A stretch of DNA of 64,000 nucleotides, from positions 23,082 to 87,081 of the forward strand of contig JAAYEC010000015.1 in assembly GCA_012728915.1 (NCBI GenBank). The letters run 5' to 3'. The DNA is from Deltaproteobacteria bacterium (GTDB lineage Bacteria > Desulfobacterota > Syntrophia > Syntrophales > UBA2192). Below, one piece after another: positions 3,086 to 60,043 of the stretch. Numbering within the stretch: position 1 is the first letter of the stretch; each line of letters opens with the position of its first letter. The notes under the pieces are model-generated. The model made no database searches, was not told where the DNA came from, and saw only the letters and a program-made list of their open reading frames with translations. Made by a program: the position numbers and the translations under genes.

Positions 3086-4753
3086 ATGCGAAGTGACCTG
3101 ATGAAGAAAGGCGTGGAGAGGGCGCCCCACCGCTCCCTCTTCAAGGCCATGGGCTACACCGACGAGGAGATCGCGCGCCCCCTGATCGGGGTGGTCAACT
3201 CCTACAACGAGATCGTCCCCGGCCACATCCACCTGCGCACTATCGCCGAGCAGGTCAAGGCGGGCATCCGCATGGCCGGCGGCACCCCCGTCGAATTCCC
3301 CGCCATCGGCGTCTGCGACGGGATCGCCATGGGGCACGTGGGCATGAAGTACTCGCTGGCGAGCCGGGAGCTCATCGCCGACTCCGTCGAGGTCATGGCC
3401 GTGGGCCACCCCTTCGACGGCCTCGTGCTCATCCCCAACTGCGACAAGATCATTCCCGGGATGCTGATGGCGGCCCTGCGGCTCAACATCCCGGCGATCT
3501 TTGTCAGCGGCGGGCCCATGCTCGCCGGGAAGCTGCGCGGCAAGCCCGTCGACCTCATCACCGTCTTCGAGGGCGTGGGCGCCGTCAAGTCGGGGAAGAT
3601 GACCGGGCGGCAGCTCAAGGAGCTCGAGGACTGCGCCTGCCCGGGCTGCGGTTCCTGCTCCGGCATGTACACGGCCAACACGATGAACTGTATGACCGAG
3701 GCCCTCGGCCTGGGGCTGCCCGGAAACGGGACTATCCTGGCGGTGGACTCCGCGCGGATACGCCTGGCCAAGGAAGCGGGCATGCGGATCCTGGAGCTCA
3801 TCAGGAAAAACATCCGGCCCCGGGACATCGCAACACCGGCGGCCTTCAAAAACGCCATTGCCGTCGACAACGCCCTGGGCGGCTCGACGAACACCGTCCT
3901 TCATCTGCCGGCCGTTGCCCACGAGGCGGGGATCCGGCTCGACCTGGAGCTCTTCAACCAGATCGGATTCAAGACCCCCAACCTCTGCAAGCTGAGCCCC
4001 GCCGGATCCCACCACATCGAGGACCTCGAGGCGGCGGGAGGCGTGCAGGCCGTCATGAAGGAGATCAGCAAGCTCGGCGTGATCGACGGGAAGGCAATGA
4101 CCGTTTCCGGGGCCACAGTCGCGAAGAACCTCAAGGAGGCCAGGGTCTGGGATTATTCGGTCATCCGCCCCGTCAAGAACCCCTACAGCCCCGACGGCGG
4201 CCTCGCCGTGGTAAAGGGGAACCTCGCCCCCGAAGGCGGCGTCGTGAAACGCTCCGCCGTGGCCCCGGCCATGCTCGTCAACGAGGGCCGCGCCCGCGTC
4301 TTCGACAGCGAGGATGACGCTATCGAGGCCATCCTGGGCGGGAAAATCAAGCCGGGAGACGTCGTCGTCATCCGGTACGAAGGGCCCAAGGGCGGGCCCG
4401 GGATGCGCGAGATGCTCGCCCCAACCTCCGCGCTGGCCGGTATGGGTCTGGCCGAGTCGGTGGCCCTCCTGACCGACGGGCGGTTCAGCGGCGGCTCCCG
4501 GGGAGCAGCGATCGGTCACATATCCCCCGAGGCGGCAGAGGGCGGTCCCATCGCGCTCGTGAAGGAAGGTGACCGCATCTCCATCGATATCCCGAAGCGC
4601 AGGATCACGCTCCGGGTGAGCGCGGAGGAGCTCAGGCGGCGAAAGAAGGCCTGGAAGCCCCCGAGGCCGAAGGTCCAGTCGGGCTACCTGTCCCGGTACG
4701 CAAGCCTCGTCACCTCCGGGAGCACGGGAGCCATCCTGAAAGACAGGGTTTGA
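3086..4753 (+). CDS. ilvD: Dihydroxy-acid dehydratase
   Basis: The protein begins [24 protein letters not shown] and carries CDGIAMG and [16 protein letters not shown] (Fe-S ligands). The full-length protein is ~555 aa. Confidence 0.94.
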
Positions 4754-5709: not shown

Positions 5710-5954
5710 CGGTCGGGAGGGCGGCACTTTTCGTGCGTGACCGACAGGCATACCGATCTCCCCGAAACGGATCATCCGGGCCGGGGCCGCCTTCCGGTTT
5801 CTCCTGCACCTGTTCATCCGCTTCAATCTCCGGCACTGCAGTCGATTGCCGCGACGGAGAAAAACCGGTGGCATCCTTGCGGAAAATCGTGTACATTATT
5901 CACGCTTGTTGTTGCGCTTGGCCCCCACCCCAAAATGACAGAAAGGTCCCGGAA

Positions 5955-7574
5955 ATGAGAGCGAAACCGATCCTCATCGCATCCCTGGCGACATGGCTAT
6001 GCCTTGTCGCCCTGGCCGGCTGGTCCGCGCCGCCGTCGTCGGTGGAACAGGTGCCGCGCCTGTCGAACGAAGACGTCCGGAACATGCTCGGGAAGCCCGA
6101 TGTCGTCATCGTGGACATCCGCTATATCAAGCAGTACGAAGAAAGCGACAGGCATATCCCCGGGGCGGTCTTCACCCAGCCGGACAAACTCGACGAATTC
6201 GTCAAAAACCATCCAAAGAAGGACGCCACTTACGTCCTCTACTGAGCCTGACCCCAGGAGTACACGGCCGCCCGGGTGGCGGTTGAGCTTTACAAGCGGG
6301 GATACACGAAGGCCTACACGATCGAGGGCGGATGGAACGGATGGGTCAAGGCGAACTTCCCCACGGAGCAGAAAGAGGTAACCTCGGCGAAAAACTGTGT
6401 CCTGTGCCACACGGCCATGACCCCCGGGATCGTGGCGGACTGGAAGCTGAGCAAGCACAGCCAGAAGGGGGTCGATTGCGCCGTCTGCCACGGCGACAAG
6501 CACTTCTCCCTCCAGACGGTCGCCCTGGCCGAGGTCCCGACGCCAGAACGCTGCGCCTACTGCCATGGCCCAAAGGTCAAGGAGTTCAAGGACGGCAAAC
6601 ACGCCAAGGCCTGGGCCTCCCTGAAGGCCATGCCCACCTTCCACATGCAGCCCATGGCGTTGATGGACGGCATGAAAGGGTGCGGGGGCTGCCACAAGAT
6701 CGGCACTAAAACAGACAATGAAATCAAAGAGTTGCGCAAACAGGGCGGCCAGTTCGGGGTCGCCTCCTGCGACGCCTGTCACACCCGGCACGTCTTCTCG
6801 AGGAAGGAAGCCCTGCAGCCCCAGGCCTGCCGGACCTGCCACATGGGCATCGACCACCCCCAGTGGGAGATGTATTCCTCCTCTAAGCATGGCGTGCGCT
6901 ACCTGCTGAAGCAAGCGGGCGTCCTGCCCGAGAGCGCCGCAGCGCCCACCTGCCAGAGCTGCCACATGACGGGCGGCAACCACGCCGTGCGGACGGCCTG
7001 GGGGTTCGTGGCCGTCAGGCTCCCCATGCCCGAGGACAAGAAGTGGGCGGCTGACCGGACGACGGTCATCAAGGGTCTTGGTGCTCTCGACCCGTCGGGA
7101 AAACCGACGGCGCGCCTCGGCGTTCTCAAGGACCTGGACATCTTCCGGACCACCCAGGAGGACTGGCAGAAGGAACGGGACCGGATGTTTGCCAACTGCC
7201 GTCAGTGCCATTCGTCCAACTTCGCCAAGGCCGAACTCGAGAAGGGCGACCAGATGATCCGCGAGGCGGACCGGCTGCTCGCCGAGGGGATCGAGATCGT
7301 GGCCGGCCTCTACCGGGACAAGATCATTGCCAGGCCGGCCCATTACGCCTACCCCTATCCCGATCTGCTGGCCTTCCACGACGCCCCGACGTCGATCGAG
7401 CAGAAGCTCTACCTCATGTTCCTGGAACACCGGATGCGGACCTTCCAAGGCACCTTCCACGCCAACCCCGACTACGCCCTCTGGTACGGATGGAGCAAGA
7501 TGGTCTCGGACATCACGGAGATCCGTAAGATGGCGGCCGACCTGAGGAAGGAGAAGAAAGCGGAAAGGCGATAG
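5955..7574 (+). CDS. Exported rhodanese domain fused to an HAO-like octaheme cytochrome c. Two in-frame TGA codons (6243-6245, 6249-6251) are candidate selenocysteines (U-A-U)
   Basis: The signal peptide is MRAKPILIASLATWLCLVALAGWS. The rhodanese N-half ends ...DATYVLY. Then come TGA-GCC-TGA, and the same frame continues PQEYTAARVAVELYKRGYTKAYTIEGGWNGWVKANFP. Eight CXXCH motifs follow (CVLCH, CAVCH, CAYCH, CGGCH, CDACH, CRTCH, CQSCH, CRQCH), and then an HAO-type C-terminal region (CRQCHSSNFAKAELEKGD, FHANPDYALWYGWS). Confidence 0.65.
6265..6285 (+). promoter_or_regulatory. Candidate bacterial SECIS-like hairpin serving the two UGAs of the rhodanese-cytochrome gene
   Basis: The sequence is CGGCCGCC-CGGGU-GGCGGUUG. 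The stem is 8 bp (6 Watson-Crick plus 2 G-U) and the apical loop contains GU. The loop lies ~31-33 nt after the first UGA and ~25-27 nt after the second. Confidence 0.4.
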
Positions 7575-7759
7575 AGACGGAGACCCGCTGAGAACGCCCC
7601 CCGATTCGGGCATTGCCGGCGGGCGCCGGGATATCCTGGGGGACGGGGGTGAATCCCGCCGAAACGAGGCGCTTCCCGCCGGAAGCGCCTTTCGCTTTTT
7701 CCCTCCCTTTACAAACATTCGGGGCGGCCCCATATTGGACGTGTGTAAGGGCTTTGACC

Positions 7760-8875
7760 ATGAGCAAGAGCACTGGGATCATCGCCGCGTTCCTTGCCGT
7801 TTTGTTGCTGAGCTGCCAGGGCACGGAAACGGGGGCCATCGAGGAGAAGAAACCCATGACGAAGGAAAACGCAGCCACGGGGGTCGCCACCTTTGCGGGC
7901 GGCTGTTTCTGGTGCACCGAATCGGATTTCGAAAAGGTGCCGGGGGTCGTGAGGGTCATCTCGGGGTATACGGGCGGCAAGAAAGAGAACCCCACCTACG
8001 AGGAGGTCTCCAGCGGCTGGACAGGCCACGTGGAGGCCGTCCAGGTCCACTACGACCCGGGCAGGATTACCTACGAGCAGCTCCTGGATGTCTTCTGGAG
8101 GCACATCGACCCGACGGACACAGGCGGGCAGTTCGTCGACCGGGGCTCCCAGTACCGCAGCGCGGTCTTTTACCACGACGAGGAGCAGAGGCGGCTCGCC
8201 GAGGCCTCGCGCGATGCCCTTGCCCGTTCCGGGAAGTTCACTCGGCCCGTCACGACGGAAATGCTCCCGTTGACGAAATTCTACGAGGCCGAGGACTACC
8301 ACCAGGACTACTACAAGAAGGATCCCCTGCGTTACCGTCTCTACAGGGCCGGATCGGGGCGGGATTCGTTTCTGAAAAAGACCTGGGGCGACGAGAAGCC
8401 GCAATCGCCGGCCCCCGCCTCAAAGACCTGGCCGAAGCCCGACGAGGAGACCCTCAAGCAGACGCTCACGCCGCTGCAGTACCAGGTGACGCGGAGGGGC
8501 GGGACGGAGCCGCCTTTCCGGAACGAGTACCACGACAACAAGCGCGAGGGGATCTACGTGGACATCGTCTCGGGAGAGCCCCTGTTCAGCTCGCTGGACA
8601 AATATGATTCCGGAACGGGGTGGCCGAGCTTCACGAAGCCGCTGGAGCCGGGAAATGTGGTTGAAAGGCCGGACCGGAGTCACCTCATGGTCCGCACGGA
8701 GGTGCGCAGCCGGCACGGCGACTCCCACCTCGGCCACGTCTTCCCCGACGGCCCCGCGCCGACGGGGCGGCGCTACTGCATGAACTCGGCTGCCCTGCGC
8801 TTTATCCCGAAAGAAAACCTGGAAAAGGAGGGATACGGGAACTATCTCGGACTTTTCGAGGAAAAACAGCCTTGA
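7760..8875 (+). CDS. msrAB: Bifunctional methionine sulfoxide reductase MsrA-MsrB lipoprotein
   Basis: A lipobox LLLSC is present. MsrA is identified by [11 protein letters not shown], and MsrB by [33 protein letters not shown] and [11 protein letters not shown]. Confidence 0.9.
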
Positions 8876-24438: not shown

Positions 24439-24972
24439 TTACTTGCGGGCCTTCTTTGCCCCGGACTTTGCCTTGCGTTTCGAGGCAACTGTTTCCAGTT
24501 CGCTCTCGAGGCGGATCACCTTCCTGAGCTCGGCGAACAGGATCTTGTTCTTGGGCCGATCGGCGATGTCGTGGATGTCGATGTAGCGGATGATCCCGTA
24601 CTTGTCGAGCACGAAGATCGCCCGCTCCGAGAATCCTTCCTTGCGCTTCACGCCGTACTTCTTCGCGACGGCCGCCTGCGGAGAAAAATCGCTCAGCAGC
24701 GGGAAGGAGATCCCGCCCAGACTTTCCGCCCATGCCTTCAGGCAGGGGATATGATCGACGCTGATGCCCAGGACCTGGGCATTGAGCCCCGCGAACTTGG
24801 CCGTCTCGGCCTCGTACGAGGGCAGCTGGTTCGTTCAGACCGGCGTCCAGGCAAGGGGGAAGAACGCGATGACAACGGGACCCCGGCCGAGGCATTTTTT
24901 GAGAGTCACTCTTCTGTCGAGGTGACTCGGCAGGGTGAAGTTGGGGGCTTTCTGCCCGACCTTCAGCTTCAT
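24439..24972 (-). CDS. Peroxiredoxin (AhpC/TSA family) with an in-frame TGA (24835-24837, complement) at the peroxidatic Cys position; candidate selenoprotein
   Basis: MKLKVGQKAPNFTLP...VVIAFFPLAWTPV-[TGA]-TNQLPSYEAETAKFAGLNAQVLGISVDH...ERAIFVLDKYGIIRY. The two track ORFs 24835..25176 and 24439..24651 are in the same frame. Confidence 0.7.
24799..24823 (-). promoter_or_regulatory. Hairpin-capable sequence downstream of the peroxiredoxin UGA (candidate SECIS)
   Basis: On the mRNA strand two overlapping hairpins are possible. GCCCU-CGUACG-AGGC begins 12 nt after the UGA, and GGCCG-AGA-CGGCC begins 24 nt after it. Confidence 0.3.
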
Positions 24973-59561: not shown

Positions 59562-59836
59562 TTTCTATTTCCTCCTTGCGACTGGTTTATTTCCGATCTT
59601 TGCCTTTCTCTATTGAAACGATCGTGCCAAGTCGCAACGGCGAAACAGAAAATTTGTAACTGCTGGTCATGATTGAAAAAACAGCGGTTCAGTTCAACCG
59701 CCCTTTGCGCGGGGGGGCCAGGAAAGGGGCTGCCCGTTGAATGGAACGTTCAACCGCGTTGAACGGATATTTCAAACGAAGATCTTCCCTGTCCGCAATG
59801 ATCCCCGTTCGGCCCACGGCCGAAGGGTCAGACGTC

Positions 59837-60043
59837 TCAGGTCCCGCCGTAGCCCACGGTCACTTTCCCGCCTTCGACGATGACGGGGACAAGCCTTTTG
59901 CCCCCGGAGAGCTTCAGCATCTCGGCAAGCCGCCCTGTATCCTTTTTCACATCCACGTAATCCGCCCCGGCGCCATAGGCCGACCTGGCCCTGTCCGTGT
60001 AAGGTCAGCCCGCCTTGCCGTAGATGACCGCCTTGTCCGCCAT
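59837..60043 (-). CDS. Glutaredoxin-like protein with in-frame TGA (60005-60007, complement) at the first active-site Cys (U-P-Y-T); candidate selenoprotein, absent from the ORF track
   Basis: An AGGAGG RBS lies 9 nt upstream, and the ATG is 28 nt after the rtcB stop codon. The protein is MADKAVIYGKAG-[TGA]-PYTDRARSAYGAGADYVDVKKDTGRLAEMLKLSGGKRLVPVIVEGGKVTVGYGGT. This matches the glutaredoxin pattern VxIYxKxxCPYCxxA...vP.i.i.G..igG. Confidence 0.6.
59978..59990 (-). promoter_or_regulatory. Candidate SECIS-like hairpin after the glutaredoxin-like UGA
   Basis: On the mRNA strand the sequence is GGCC-AGGUC-GGCC. The loop contains GGUC and lies ~21-25 nt after the UGA. Confidence 0.35.

What the first reader, a model, noticed from the sequence alone, without database searches (positions are those of the whole stretch)
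5955..7574. Exported rhodanese fused to an HAO-like octaheme cytochrome c, intact only if two TGA codons on the CxC active-site cysteines are read as selenocysteine (U-A-U)
Seen in sequence. One frame runs from ATG 5955 to stop 7574 and is interrupted only by TGA 6243-6245 and TGA 6249-6251, which are separated by GCC. Upstream of them lie a Sec-type signal peptide and the N-half of a rhodanese domain (...DATYVLY). Downstream, the same frame gives the rest of that domain (PQEYTAARVAVELYKRGYTKAYTIEGGWNGWVKANFP). After that come eight CXXCH heme sites and an HAO-type helical C-terminus. The downstream part has no signal peptide, ATG or SD of its own, yet c-type cytochromes must be exported, so it cannot be an independent gene. 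From memory, Cys-containing members of this rhodanese subfamily read Y-C-x-C-P-x-E-x-[ST]-A-A-R-V-A, so both TGAs fall exactly on cysteine positions. An 8-bp hairpin with a CGGGU loop (6265-6285) lies 25-33 nt downstream. This is within the UGA-to-loop distance I recall for bacterial SECIS elements. TGA also terminates many ordinary genes in this window, so global reassignment is unlikely. I know of no described rhodanese-HAO fusion and no U-x-U rhodanese site. Inference: a periplasmic persulfide/perselenide-carrying domain feeds, or is reduced by, an eight-heme wire. It could be a reductase or oxidase for an S, Se or N oxyanion or a polysulfide-type substrate.
Basis: partly seen in the sequence, partly recalled or inferred. 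Interest (0 to 1): 0.92.

Follow-up and report, generated by a model that had tools for sequence, protein, structure and literature searches.

The report
Two-selenocysteine rhodanese fused to octaheme cytochrome
This is one real gene for an exported protein in which a sulfur-carrier (rhodanese) domain with two selenocysteines is fused to an eight-heme cytochrome; the selenium-containing rhodanese was already known, but the fusion seems undescribed and is routinely mis-annotated as two broken genes.

Summary
ATG 5955 to TAG 7574 is one frame, broken only by TGA 6243-6245 and TGA 6249-6251. A rhodanese domain spans both TGAs, and eight CXXCH motifs of a hydroxylamine-oxidoreductase (HAO)-family cytochrome follow.

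The same interrupted gene recurs in about 100 independent genome and metagenome loci, mostly Syntrophales and other Desulfobacterota. The second TGA is present in every Sec-type locus. The first position alternates between TGA and Cys. A hairpin (5-bp core, 5-nt loop) follows at a fixed distance and shows compensatory changes. It is absent from a homologue without TGA. TGA ends 17 of 32 supported genes in the window, which also holds two other selenoprotein genes.

The rhodanese part scores above the curated cut-off of NCBIfam NF041203, "rhodanese_LYCAU, rhodanese-related (seleno)protein". A U-x-U rhodanese was published in 2007, so that part is not new. No C-x-C homologue was found.

The fusion to an HAO-type octaheme appears undescribed. 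I found no paper and no curated model for it, and NCBI annotation splits it into two genes. Function is inferred only. My preferred reading is a periplasmic reductase for sulfane sulfur (polysulfide-type), by analogy with MccSep and Sud.

The parts
5940..5946 (+). Shine-Dalgarno-like AGAAAGG, 8 nt upstream of the start codon
   Evidence: Read directly from the sequence.
5955..7574 (+). Complete coding sequence: 539 residues including two Sec, then TAG. Architecture: signal peptide, rhodanese (LY-U-A-U), HAO-family octaheme cytochrome c.
   Evidence: The same architecture occurs in more than 60 other loci.
5955..6020 (+). Sec-type signal peptide (MRAKPILIASLATWLCLVALAG|WSAPP). The boundary is approximate.
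   Evidence: Sequence features only: basic n-region, hydrophobic core, ALAG. It is conserved in orthologues. No predictor was run.
6003..6374 (+). Rhodanese domain of the LYCAU (seleno)protein family, residues 17-140
   Evidence: NCBIfam NF041203 scores 129.2 bits against a cut-off of 115, over profile positions 4-126 of 126. Pfam PF00581 covers residues 38-132.
6243..6245 (+). First in-frame TGA (codon 97). Read as Sec; it is Cys (TGT/TGC) in many orthologues.
   Evidence: TGA or Cys codon at the aligned position in all family loci. Metagenome loci: 58 U-x-U against 19 C-x-U.
6249..6251 (+). Second in-frame TGA (codon 99). This is the family-defining Sec of the LYCAU motif. By spacing to the following helix it sits at the canonical rhodanese catalytic position.
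   Evidence: TGA in 77 of 77 metagenome loci and in 27 of 28 genome-collection family loci. The exception is L033, which has C-A-S. Alignments to solved rhodaneses are ambiguous between the two positions.
6265..6285 (+). SECIS-like hairpin: 8 bp in this lineage, conserved core 6268-6272 paired with 6278-6282, loop CGGGU at 6273-6277. The loop starts 27 nt after UGA1 and 21 nt after UGA2.
   Evidence: fold; the core is conserved in 23 of 23 sequences, two pairs covary, 0 of 500 shuffles reach the observed score, and RNAalifold finds the same stem. The hairpin is absent in the TGA-free homologue L033.
6396..7571 (+). HAO-family octaheme cytochrome c module. CXXCH motifs start at 6396, 6477, 6552, 6681, 6768, 6828, 6951 and 7197.
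   Evidence: It is 55-91% identical to the cytochrome part of other fused loci and about 70% identical to stand-alone 415-aa octahemes.
7666..7701 (+). Intrinsic-terminator-like hairpin (11 pairs, 7 G-C) followed by a T run. This suggests a monocistronic gene.

Best explanation
5955-7574 is one intact gene for an exported selenoprotein with two selenocysteines.

How it is made. Translation starts at ATG 5955. Both UGA codons (6243 and 6249) are read as Sec, directed by a single hairpin 21-27 nt downstream. The product is a periplasmic protein. Its N-terminal rhodanese domain belongs to the known 'LYCAU' rhodanese selenoprotein family. Here it is in the rarer LY-U-A-U form, where the family's Cys has also become Sec. 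After a roughly 10-residue linker comes an eight-heme cytochrome c of the hydroxylamine-oxidoreductase family. That module is essentially identical to a widespread stand-alone periplasmic octaheme.

What is shown. The gene structure, the recoding sites, the hairpin, both family assignments and the recurrence of the fusion are shown.

What is inferred (about 0.3-0.35 on its own). The U-x-U pair acts as a sulfane-sulfur acceptor. It would form a Se-S-S(n) adduct that resolves into a Se-Se bond while releasing sulfide. The heme chain would then re-reduce that bond, or the sulfur would be handed to the catalytic heme. This would make the protein a periplasmic polysulfide- or sulfane-sulfur-type reductase.
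For: One gene:
- Pfam and NCBIfam rhodanese models span both TGAs.
- The cytochrome part lacks a signal peptide, while stand-alone relatives have one.
- Gene-caller starts differ between orthologues.
- An SD-like site and an ATG occur only at 5955, and a terminator-like hairpin follows the TAG.

Recoding:
- Y-TGA-GCN-TGA or Y-TGY-GCN-TGA is conserved in 5 + 27 + 77 loci, with synonymous variation around it.
- In a scan of 1.84 billion representative proteins, almost all of the best 150 of 168 hits are 90-100 aa calls whose match ends at, or two residues before, their C-terminus. All 15 N-terminal fragments whose sequences I read (9, 6 exact-length ones) end in ...LY or ...LYC[ADSK], which is truncation at these codons.
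- NF041203 is a curated (seleno)protein model named for the motif LYCAU.
- A U-x-U rhodanese has been published.

Hairpin:
- Pairs 29:43 (GC/CG) and 30:42 (UA/CG/UG) covary, the latter through synonymous third positions. No sequence is unpaired at 30:42.
- The covariation score is 0.334 against 0.170 for shuffles, with 0 of 500 shuffles reaching it. Slid controls score 0.08 or less.
- RNAalifold finds the same stem.

Sec use by this organism:
- TGA ends 17 of 32 supported ORFs.
- The window holds two other selenoprotein genes. One is a UXX-star glutaredoxin-like protein above the NCBIfam cut-off (100 bits against 72). The other is a peroxiredoxin with TGA at the peroxidatic Cys position.
- Their UGA-to-loop distances are 19-28 nt, which brackets the 21 and 27 nt found here.

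Function, by analogy:
- MccSep is a periplasmic Sec-containing multiheme polysulfide reductase (PMC13510729).
- Its Geobacter gene cluster also encodes a rhodanese-like protein, ExtH (PMC5877670).
- Multiheme enzymes are promiscuous between N and S substrates.
Against: - No selA, selB, selC or selD gene and no tRNA-Sec lies in the 64-kb window.
- No Rfam model matches the hairpin, and its folding energy is not better than shuffled sequence.
- No Cys counterpart of the second Sec was found, only Ser or Lys in four TGA-free relatives. The classic Sec/Cys-pair criterion is therefore met only at the first position.
- One hairpin serving two UGAs 6 nt apart has not been demonstrated.

Against the functional model:
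- The cytochrome module shows no group-specific residue differences from the stand-alone octahemes. It probably keeps its own HAO-type chemistry, which could be N-oxide reduction.
- The closest solved relative is a nitrite-reducing HAO.
- Gene neighbourhoods are uninformative.
Confidence: 0.85

Rival explanations
1. Same gene and recoding, but the enzyme is an HAO-type reductase for a nitrogen oxide (nitrite, NO or hydroxylamine). The selenium-rhodanese module would be an accessory: a redox switch, a protective or regulatory module, or an electron entry point.
For: The best solved relative is the nitrite-reducing Kuenenia HAO (6h5l) and the other hits are also HAO or HDH enzymes. Reductive HAOs that lack the Tyr cross-link reduce nitrite and hydroxylamine (PMC8042395). 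The cytochrome module is indistinguishable from the stand-alone octahemes, which work without a rhodanese. JGI labels many of them 'hydroxylamine dehydrogenase'.
Against: No nitrogen-cycle genes lie nearby. Rhodanese domains are sulfur or selenium carriers, and no role for them in N-oxide chemistry is known. The costly Sec pair suggests it takes part directly in catalysis. The presence or absence of the cross-link Tyr could not be determined.
Confidence: 0.25
2. Same gene, but the substrate is selenium or tellurium. The U-x-U loop would bind Se as a perselenide or triselenide, and the hemes would reduce selenite or tellurite, or deliver Se, in the periplasm.
For: Rhodanese can carry selenium as a perselenide (Ogasawara et al. 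2001, seen only as a reference-list entry of PMC5877670; not read). That paper's title implicates ExtI, the porin of the Geobacter ext cluster (rhodanese-like ExtH, porin ExtI, Sec-cytochrome ExtKL), in selenite and tellurite reduction.
Against: The evidence is entirely indirect. MccSep from that cluster turned out to be a polysulfide reductase. There are no Se-metabolism genes in the neighbourhood.
Confidence: 0.1
3. The UGAs are read through, but as a standard amino acid (Trp, Cys or Gly, by near-cognate or suppressor decoding) rather than as Sec.
For: The Sec machinery is not visible in the window. No Cys homologue exists for the second position.
Against: A conserved covarying hairpin sits at SECIS distance. 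The protein belongs to a curated selenoprotein family. TGA alternates with Cys codons at position 1. The window has two other selenoprotein genes with TGA at catalytic Cys positions. TGA is the commonest ordinary stop codon here.
Confidence: 0.04
4. It is a pseudogene, an assembly error, or two separate truncated genes.
For: Automatic annotation calls two genes: a 96-aa 'rhodanese-like/hypothetical' protein and a 416-440-aa 'multiheme c-type cytochrome'.
Against: The same two codons recur in about 100 independent assemblies, down to 40% identity in the rhodanese part. Both halves are incomplete domains. An exported cytochrome cannot work without a signal peptide. Real pseudogenes in the family look different: L034 has TAA at a conserved Trp, and L013 is frameshifted.
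Confidence: 0.01

Closest known systems
[quoted passage not shown]
   Same: The N-terminal 140 residues score above the curated cut-off over the whole profile. They share the signal peptide, the TGA at the U of L-Y-C-A-U, the downstream hairpin and the ...PTE.K domain end.
   Different: The family is a stand-alone protein of about 130 aa with one Sec. Here the Cys is also Sec (LY-U-A-U), and the domain continues into a 390-aa octaheme cytochrome instead of ending in a stop codon.
U-x-U rhodanese-related sulfurtransferase from the Olavius algarvensis delta-proteobacterial symbionts (Zhang & Gladyshev 2007, PMC1976440)
   Same: It is a rhodanese selenoprotein in which a second Sec evolved to give a UxU motif.
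   Different: No cytochrome fusion is mentioned there. I could not see the figure, so sequence-level identity of the family is inferred, not checked.
Reductive HAO-family octahemes: Kuenenia Kustc0458 (6h5l; called HAOr in PMC8042395) and epsilonproteobacterial Hao
   Same: Eight CXXCH motifs. Sequence similarity runs through the heme core and the C-terminal helices, including a shared CHMGxDHP segment. All are soluble periplasm-type proteins.
   Different: The match is only about 1e-29, and the module is shorter (about 390 aa against 500-570). There is no diheme partner gene. The status of the Tyr cross-link and the substrate are unknown. No HAO is known with a rhodanese or a Sec.
MccSep / ExtKL of Geobacter sulfurreducens (PMC13510729)
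   Same: It is a periplasmic multiheme cytochrome c selenoprotein, also mis-annotated as two genes split at a UGA. Sec is essential for polysulfide reduction. Its gene cluster also encodes a rhodanese-like protein, ExtH.
   Different: It has five hemes and one Sec in a GUPTPNR loop next to a Cys-ligated heme, and no rhodanese domain in the polypeptide. The family is unrelated: there was no NF040886 hit.
Sud, the periplasmic polysulfide-sulfur transferase of Wolinella succinogenes (PDB 1qxn), working with polysulfide reductase
   Same: It is a periplasmic single-domain rhodanese that carries sulfane sulfur to a respiratory reductase. This role is from my own knowledge. The sequence match is weak (E = 0.084).
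   Different: It is Cys-based, is a separate protein and has a molybdoenzyme partner. There is no close sequence relationship.

Membership tests
NF041203 rhodanese_LYCAU (seleno)protein | HMM score above the curated cut-off over the full profile | tested here: met
   129.2 bits against a cut-off of 115; residues 17-140; profile positions 4-126 of 126.
NF041203 rhodanese_LYCAU (seleno)protein | Motif L-Y-C-A-U with TGA at the U position | tested here: met
   The sequence is L-Y-U-A-U. The U position is TGA 6249-6251. The C position is also TGA, which is a variant.
NF041203 rhodanese_LYCAU (seleno)protein | Stand-alone exported protein of about 126-135 aa ending after ...PTE.K | tested here: not met
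   The frame continues into an octaheme cytochrome. Stand-alone members (L026-L032, L093-L132) stop 41 codons after the motif.
Bacterial selenoprotein gene (Sec decoding of UGA) | In-frame UGA conserved in orthologues, with coding conservation on both sides | tested here: met
Bacterial selenoprotein gene (Sec decoding of UGA) | Cys-containing homologues aligned with the UGA | tested here: inconclusive
   Position 1: met (TGT or TGC in many loci). Position 2: no Cys seen, only Ser or Lys in four TGA-free relatives.
Bacterial selenoprotein gene (Sec decoding of UGA) | SECIS stem-loop immediately downstream of the UGA | tested here: met
   A conserved hairpin (5-bp core, 5-nt loop) with G at loop position 2 in all 23 aligned sequences, two covarying pairs and 0 of 500 shuffles reaching the score. 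Loop distances are 21 and 27 nt, inside the 19-28 nt seen in the window's other selenoprotein genes. No curated model exists to score it.
Bacterial selenoprotein gene (Sec decoding of UGA) | selA, selB, selC (tRNA-Sec) and selD in the genome | not testable with these tools
Indirect support: two further selenoprotein genes lie in the window.
Bacterial selenoprotein gene (Sec decoding of UGA) | Selenium in the protein | not testable with these tools
   This needs 75Se labelling or mass spectrometry.
HAO family of octaheme cytochromes c | Eight CXXCH motifs and sequence homology to solved HAO, HDH or HAOr structures | tested here: met
   Eight motifs. Hits: 6h5l 1e-29, 6t5e 4e-27, 4n4j 2e-26, 6hif 3e-22, 1fgj 2e-20. 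The Pfam Multi-haem_cyto and Cytochrome_C554 models also match.
HAO family of octaheme cytochromes c | One five-coordinate catalytic heme and seven bis-His hemes | not tested
   The segment CHMGIDHPQW aligns with CHMGPDHP of 6h5l, and eleven further His residues are conserved. Ligand assignment would need a structure.
HAO family of octaheme cytochromes c | Tyr-heme cross-link and covalent trimer (oxidative subclass only) | not tested
   The C-terminal region does not align with NeHAO by sequence. The full-length sequence could not be submitted for structure prediction.
MccSep / ExtKL pentaheme selenoprotein (NF040886) | Five hemes, Sec in a G-U-P loop, Cys-ligated catalytic heme | tested here: not met
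   There are eight hemes and the Sec residues lie in a rhodanese loop. NF040886 is not among the NCBIfam hits at E <= 0.01.
TsoB rhodanese/DsbD fusion-like selenoprotein (NF045694, UxxxxU) | HMM score above the cut-off | tested here: not met
   25.8 bits against a cut-off of 805.

The most novel reading that the evidence does not exclude
The fusion defines a new class of periplasmic selenoenzyme. In this reading a diselenide/diselenol (U-x-U) or selenenylsulfide (C-x-U) centre on a rhodanese loop is wired directly to an HAO-type eight-heme module, so that chalcogen-transfer chemistry (polysulfide, thiosulfate or selenium species) is coupled to a heme wire within one polypeptide. It would also be a natural case of one bacterial SECIS hairpin recoding two UGA codons that are one codon apart.
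Probability: 0.3. Interest if true: 0.8.

Novelty: new variant of a known kind. Interest (0 to 1): 0.6.

Why it matters
1. Annotation. A widespread gene is systematically split into a 'hypothetical/rhodanese-like' stub and a signal-less 'multiheme cytochrome'. I found it in at least 21 species-level genomes and about 46 metagenome loci, from wetlands, sediments, sewage sludge and digesters. As a result it is invisible to metabolic reconstructions of Syntrophales and other Desulfobacterota.

2. Function of an uncharacterised family. The fusion links two modules that each lack a known function: the LYCAU selenium-rhodanese and a very conserved orphan octaheme found across many phyla. By Rosetta-stone logic the fusion gives a testable hint that the octaheme family may act on sulfur or selenium substrates rather than, or in addition to, nitrogen oxides.

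3. Recoding. After MccSep, it would be a second kind of Sec-containing periplasmic multiheme enzyme. It is also a natural system for asking how one SECIS serves two closely spaced UGA codons.

Tried and rejected
- Rfam, at gathering thresholds on the whole window and at E <= 10 on 6180-6340, found no SECIS family. This is uninformative, because no Rfam family matched; whether Rfam holds a model suited to this hairpin was not checked.
- The single-sequence fold z-score was not significant, so I did not use it as evidence.
- The search of protein representatives and structure prediction refuse the read-through protein (U replaced by C) and translations containing stops. I therefore searched with the exact N-terminal 69 residues instead. 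No full-length model or interdomain geometry could be obtained.
- The third homologous-protein search, with a 95-aa junction query, found only 4 candidates. I cannot exclude rare full-length Cys-type fusions. None appeared among the top 120 hits to the full-length query.
- Gene-neighbourhood analysis of fused loci, stand-alone rhodaneses (no octaheme within 3 kb) and stand-alone octahemes found no conserved partner and gave no functional clue.
- The other in-frame-TGA candidates were rejected as adjacent genes or non-coding frames, for example 33954 (a small ORF followed by 2-oxoacid:ferredoxin oxidoreductase) and 8873 (MsrAB followed by HisF).
- Literature searches for a rhodanese-HAO or rhodanese-octaheme fusion returned nothing relevant.
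Full report
**1. The observation**

The frame that opens at ATG 5955 runs to TAG 7572-7574. It is interrupted only by TGA 6243-6245 and TGA 6249-6251, with GCC between them. The translation reads ...KKDATYVLY*A*PQEYTAARVAVELYKRGY....

Domain content:
- The Pfam Rhodanese model covers residues 38-132 almost end to end (profile 2-101 of 102). The two stops therefore sit inside one domain.
- Eight CXXCH motifs follow, at residues 148, 175, 200, 243, 272, 292, 333 and 415.
- A sequence search of all solved structures returns only HAO-family octahemes at the top: 6h5l at 1e-29, then 6t5e, 4n4j, hydrazine dehydrogenase 6hif and Nitrosomonas HAO 1fgj. Matched stretches extend into the C-terminal helical region.

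Signals around the gene:
- An SD-like AGAAAGG lies 8 nt before the ATG.
- A strong terminator-like hairpin (7666-7691, then a T run) follows the stop.
- TGA ends 17 of 32 Pfam-supported ORFs in the window, so the code is standard.

**2. One gene, not two**

Database proteins similar to the read-through product fall into two classes.
- One class is about 415 aa, has its own signal peptide and starts immediately before the first CXXCH. It occurs in Acidobacteriota, Zixibacteria, KSB1, Nitrospirota and many others.
- The other class is 416-440 aa, has no signal peptide and starts at different, non-homologous points inside the C-terminal half of a rhodanese domain. These come from Syntrophales and relatives, and they are gene-caller artefacts.

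Upstream of each member of the second class lies a 96-aa 'rhodanese' stub ending in ...YVLY.

Fetching the DNA shows the same interrupted frame. L001 (67% identical) and L004 (89%) read Y-TGA-GCC/GCT-TGA-CCN. L005 does the same, and L006 reads Y-TGT-GCG-TGA.

**3. Breadth and the pattern at the two codons**

I scanned one genome per species with the rhodanese part as query. This gave 28 family loci, all from Syntrophales/Syntrophaceae, Syntrophobacterales, Desulfobacteraceae and other Thermodesulfobacteriota MAGs.
- 21 are fused to the octaheme.
- 7 are stand-alone rhodaneses that stop after ...PTE.K.

A metagenome scan gave 77 analysable loci:

| Active-site pattern | Fused | Stand-alone | Contig too short |
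|---|---|---|---|
| U-x-U | 40 | 14 | 4 |
| C-x-U | 6 | 13 | 0 |

What the pattern shows:
- The second codon is TGA in all 77 metagenome loci and in 27 of the 28 genome loci.
- The first position is TGA or a Cys codon.
- In an exhaustive HMMER scan of 1.84 billion representative proteins with the N-terminal 69 residues, almost all of the best 150 of 168 hits are 90-100 aa calls. Their match ends at, or two residues before, their C-terminus. Every N-terminal fragment whose sequence I read (9, 6 exact-length ones) ends in ...LY or ...LYC[ADSK].
- Only three TGA-free full-length relatives appeared. They read C-A-S, C-L-K and C-A-K; locus L033 also reads C-A-S.
Position 1 shows classic Sec/Cys alternation. 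Position 2 is Sec or a non-redox residue.
- L054, from an independent activated-sludge assembly, is identical in DNA across the whole site.

**4. The hairpin**

In a gapless alignment of 23 diverse Sec-type loci, a 5-bp stem with a 5-nt loop (window 6268-6282) is present in every sequence. G occupies loop position 2 in all of them.

Evidence that it is a real structure:
- Pair 30:42 is C-G in 9 sequences, U-A in 11 and U-G in 3. It is never unpaired, and both sides are third codon positions (Ala/Ser and Ala).
- Pair 29:43 switches between G-C and C-G.
- The covariation score is 0.334 against 0.170 ± 0.027 for shuffles, with 0 of 500 shuffles reaching it. Slid controls score 0.08 or less.
- RNAalifold finds the same stem on its own.
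- Within the window's own clade the path C-G, U-G, U-A is visible (window, then L008/L009, then L020).
- The TGA-free homologue L033 has no hairpin.

In the window the stem extends to 8 bp (6265-6285). The loop starts 21 nt after UGA2 and 27 nt after UGA1. The hairpin keeps the same distance to UGA2 in C-x-U members. It was therefore presumably set up for UGA2, and the newer UGA1 uses it as well.

Two caveats apply. The single-sequence energy is not better than shuffled GC-rich sequence. No Rfam model applies.

**5. Does this organism use Sec?**

No tRNA-Sec and no selA, selB or selD lies in the window. However, the window contains two further genes with TGA at catalytic Cys positions.
- An AhpC/TSA peroxiredoxin on the minus strand (24972-24439, TGA at 24837-24835, FFPLAWTPV-U-T). 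The Pfam model spans the TGA.
- A glutaredoxin-like protein on the minus strand (60043-59828). It has G-U-PYT near the N-terminus and a C-terminal T-U-D-V-stop followed by a 10-bp hairpin. It scores 100 bits against a cut-off of 72 for NCBIfam NF041114, 'UXX-star selenoprotein family 1'.

Their UGA-to-loop distances are 28, 27 and 19 nt. These values bracket the 21 and 27 nt of the target gene.

**6. What is already known**

- The rhodanese part scores 129.2 bits (cut-off 115), over the full profile, for NCBIfam NF041203 'rhodanese_LYCAU, rhodanese-related (seleno)protein'. The model name spells the motif.
- Zhang and Gladyshev reported in 2007 a rhodanese-related sulfurtransferase 'wherein a second Sec evolved ... 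resulting in a UxU motif' (PMC1976440).

The Sec-rhodanese and its U-x-U form are therefore not new.

**7. What appears to be new**

- The cytochrome part has no specific NCBIfam. Its best hit is hydrazine_HDH at 85 bits against a cut-off of 900.
- Three literature searches for a rhodanese-HAO or rhodanese-octaheme combination found nothing relevant.
- NCBI names the halves separately, as 'multiheme c-type cytochrome' (431 aa) and 'hypothetical' or 'rhodanese-like domain-containing protein' (96 aa).
- No full-length product appears among the top 120 database hits.

**8. Function**

Context gives no help.
- Fused genes look monocistronic, and their neighbours vary. In this clade they are an alpha/beta hydrolase upstream and a periplasmic MsrAB downstream. 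In another clade they are EF-P, a radical-SAM protein and EamA.
- Stand-alone octahemes are orphan genes too.
- Stand-alone LYCAU rhodaneses have no octaheme within 3 kb.
- The cytochrome modules of fused and stand-alone forms show no group-specific residue. The rhodanese is therefore an add-on to an otherwise unchanged enzyme.

By spacing to the helix that follows, the constant Sec (U99) occupies the canonical rhodanese catalytic position, and residue 97 lies two residues upstream. Alignments to solved rhodaneses are ambiguous between the two.

My preferred mechanism (an inference, about one in three) has three steps.
1. The selenolate takes sulfane sulfur from polysulfide, or from a thiosulfate-type donor.
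2. The neighbouring Sec or Cys resolves the adduct, releasing sulfide and forming a Se-Se or Se-S bond.
3. The heme chain re-reduces that bond, or the sulfur is passed to the catalytic heme.

Precedents:
- MccSep, a periplasmic Sec-dependent multiheme polysulfide reductase that is also split by annotation at its UGA (PMC13510729).
- Its gene cluster, which also encodes a rhodanese-like protein, ExtH (PMC5877670).
- Sud with polysulfide reductase (own knowledge).

The main rival is that the module stays an HAO-type N-oxide reductase, like its nearest solved relative.

**9. Verdict**

The finding is real and well observed. The recoding interpretation is strongly supported by comparative evidence. 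The claimed novelty has to be narrowed from 'U-x-U rhodanese' to 'fusion of the LYCAU selenium-rhodanese with an HAO-family octaheme'. I rate it a new variant of known kinds, of moderate to high interest. It matters mainly as a mis-annotated, widespread selenoenzyme of unknown function and as a natural two-UGA, one-hairpin system.

Noticed in passing
window 24439-24972, minus strand (TGA at 24835-24837): An AhpC/TSA peroxiredoxin gene with an in-frame TGA exactly at the peroxidatic Cys position (FFPLAWTPV-U-TNQLP). The Pfam model spans the TGA, and a hairpin loop starts 28 nt downstream. It is probably a Sec-peroxiredoxin. It is below the cut-off of every NCBIfam model.
   Followed up: partly
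window 59828-60043, minus strand (TGA at 60005-60007 and 59837-59839; stop at 59828-59830): A glutaredoxin-like 'UXX-star' selenoprotein with two Sec: G-U-PYT at the redox motif, and T-U-D-V-stop at the C-terminus followed at once by a 10-bp hairpin. NCBIfam NF041114 scores 100 bits against a cut-off of 72. Together with the peroxiredoxin, this gives three selenoprotein genes in 64 kb.
   Followed up: partly
P0019-P0120 (for example P0028, P0102); loci L134-L139: The stand-alone 415-aa octaheme family is about 70% identical across very distant phyla (Acidobacteriota, Zixibacteria, KSB1, Nitrospirota, Desulfobacterota). More than 6000 database clusters match at E <= 1e-5. The genes are always orphans with no conserved partner, and no NCBIfam equivalog exists. 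It is a very conserved periplasmic enzyme of unknown function.
   Followed up: partly
window about 7760-8875 (+); L004 3346-4449: A signal-peptide-bearing MsrA-MsrB fusion (periplasmic methionine sulfoxide reductase) lies just downstream of the target gene. It sits behind its own promoter-like site and after a terminator. The same neighbour occurs in the 89%-identical locus L004.
   Followed up: no
L034 646-780; L013 3358-4510: These are real decay products in the family. The L034 stand-alone rhodanese has TAA at the conserved Trp of GGWxxW. The L013 cytochrome part is frameshifted. They show what a pseudogene looks like here, in contrast with the conserved TGAs.
   Followed up: partly
L005 1-576: In one fused locus the upstream gene is an exported thioredoxin-like (TlpA/ResA-type, CPHC) protein. 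It could be a reductant for the Se-Se or Se-S centre. It was seen only once.
   Followed up: no
P0306 (134 aa) compared with the family: One TGA-free relative has a loop two residues shorter (C-A-K-G-L-T-S-A-R). This puts its Cys, the family's position 1, at the canonical rhodanese C-x-x-G-x-[RT]-S spacing. Either of the two positions may therefore be able to serve as the catalytic residue.
   Followed up: no
window 3086-4753 (+): The window's IlvD protein occurs with an identical sequence in 220 blocks of the public collection. These include sewage metagenomes and NCBI MAG GCA_035356165.1, so the organism is a common inhabitant of wastewater and digesters.
   Followed up: partly
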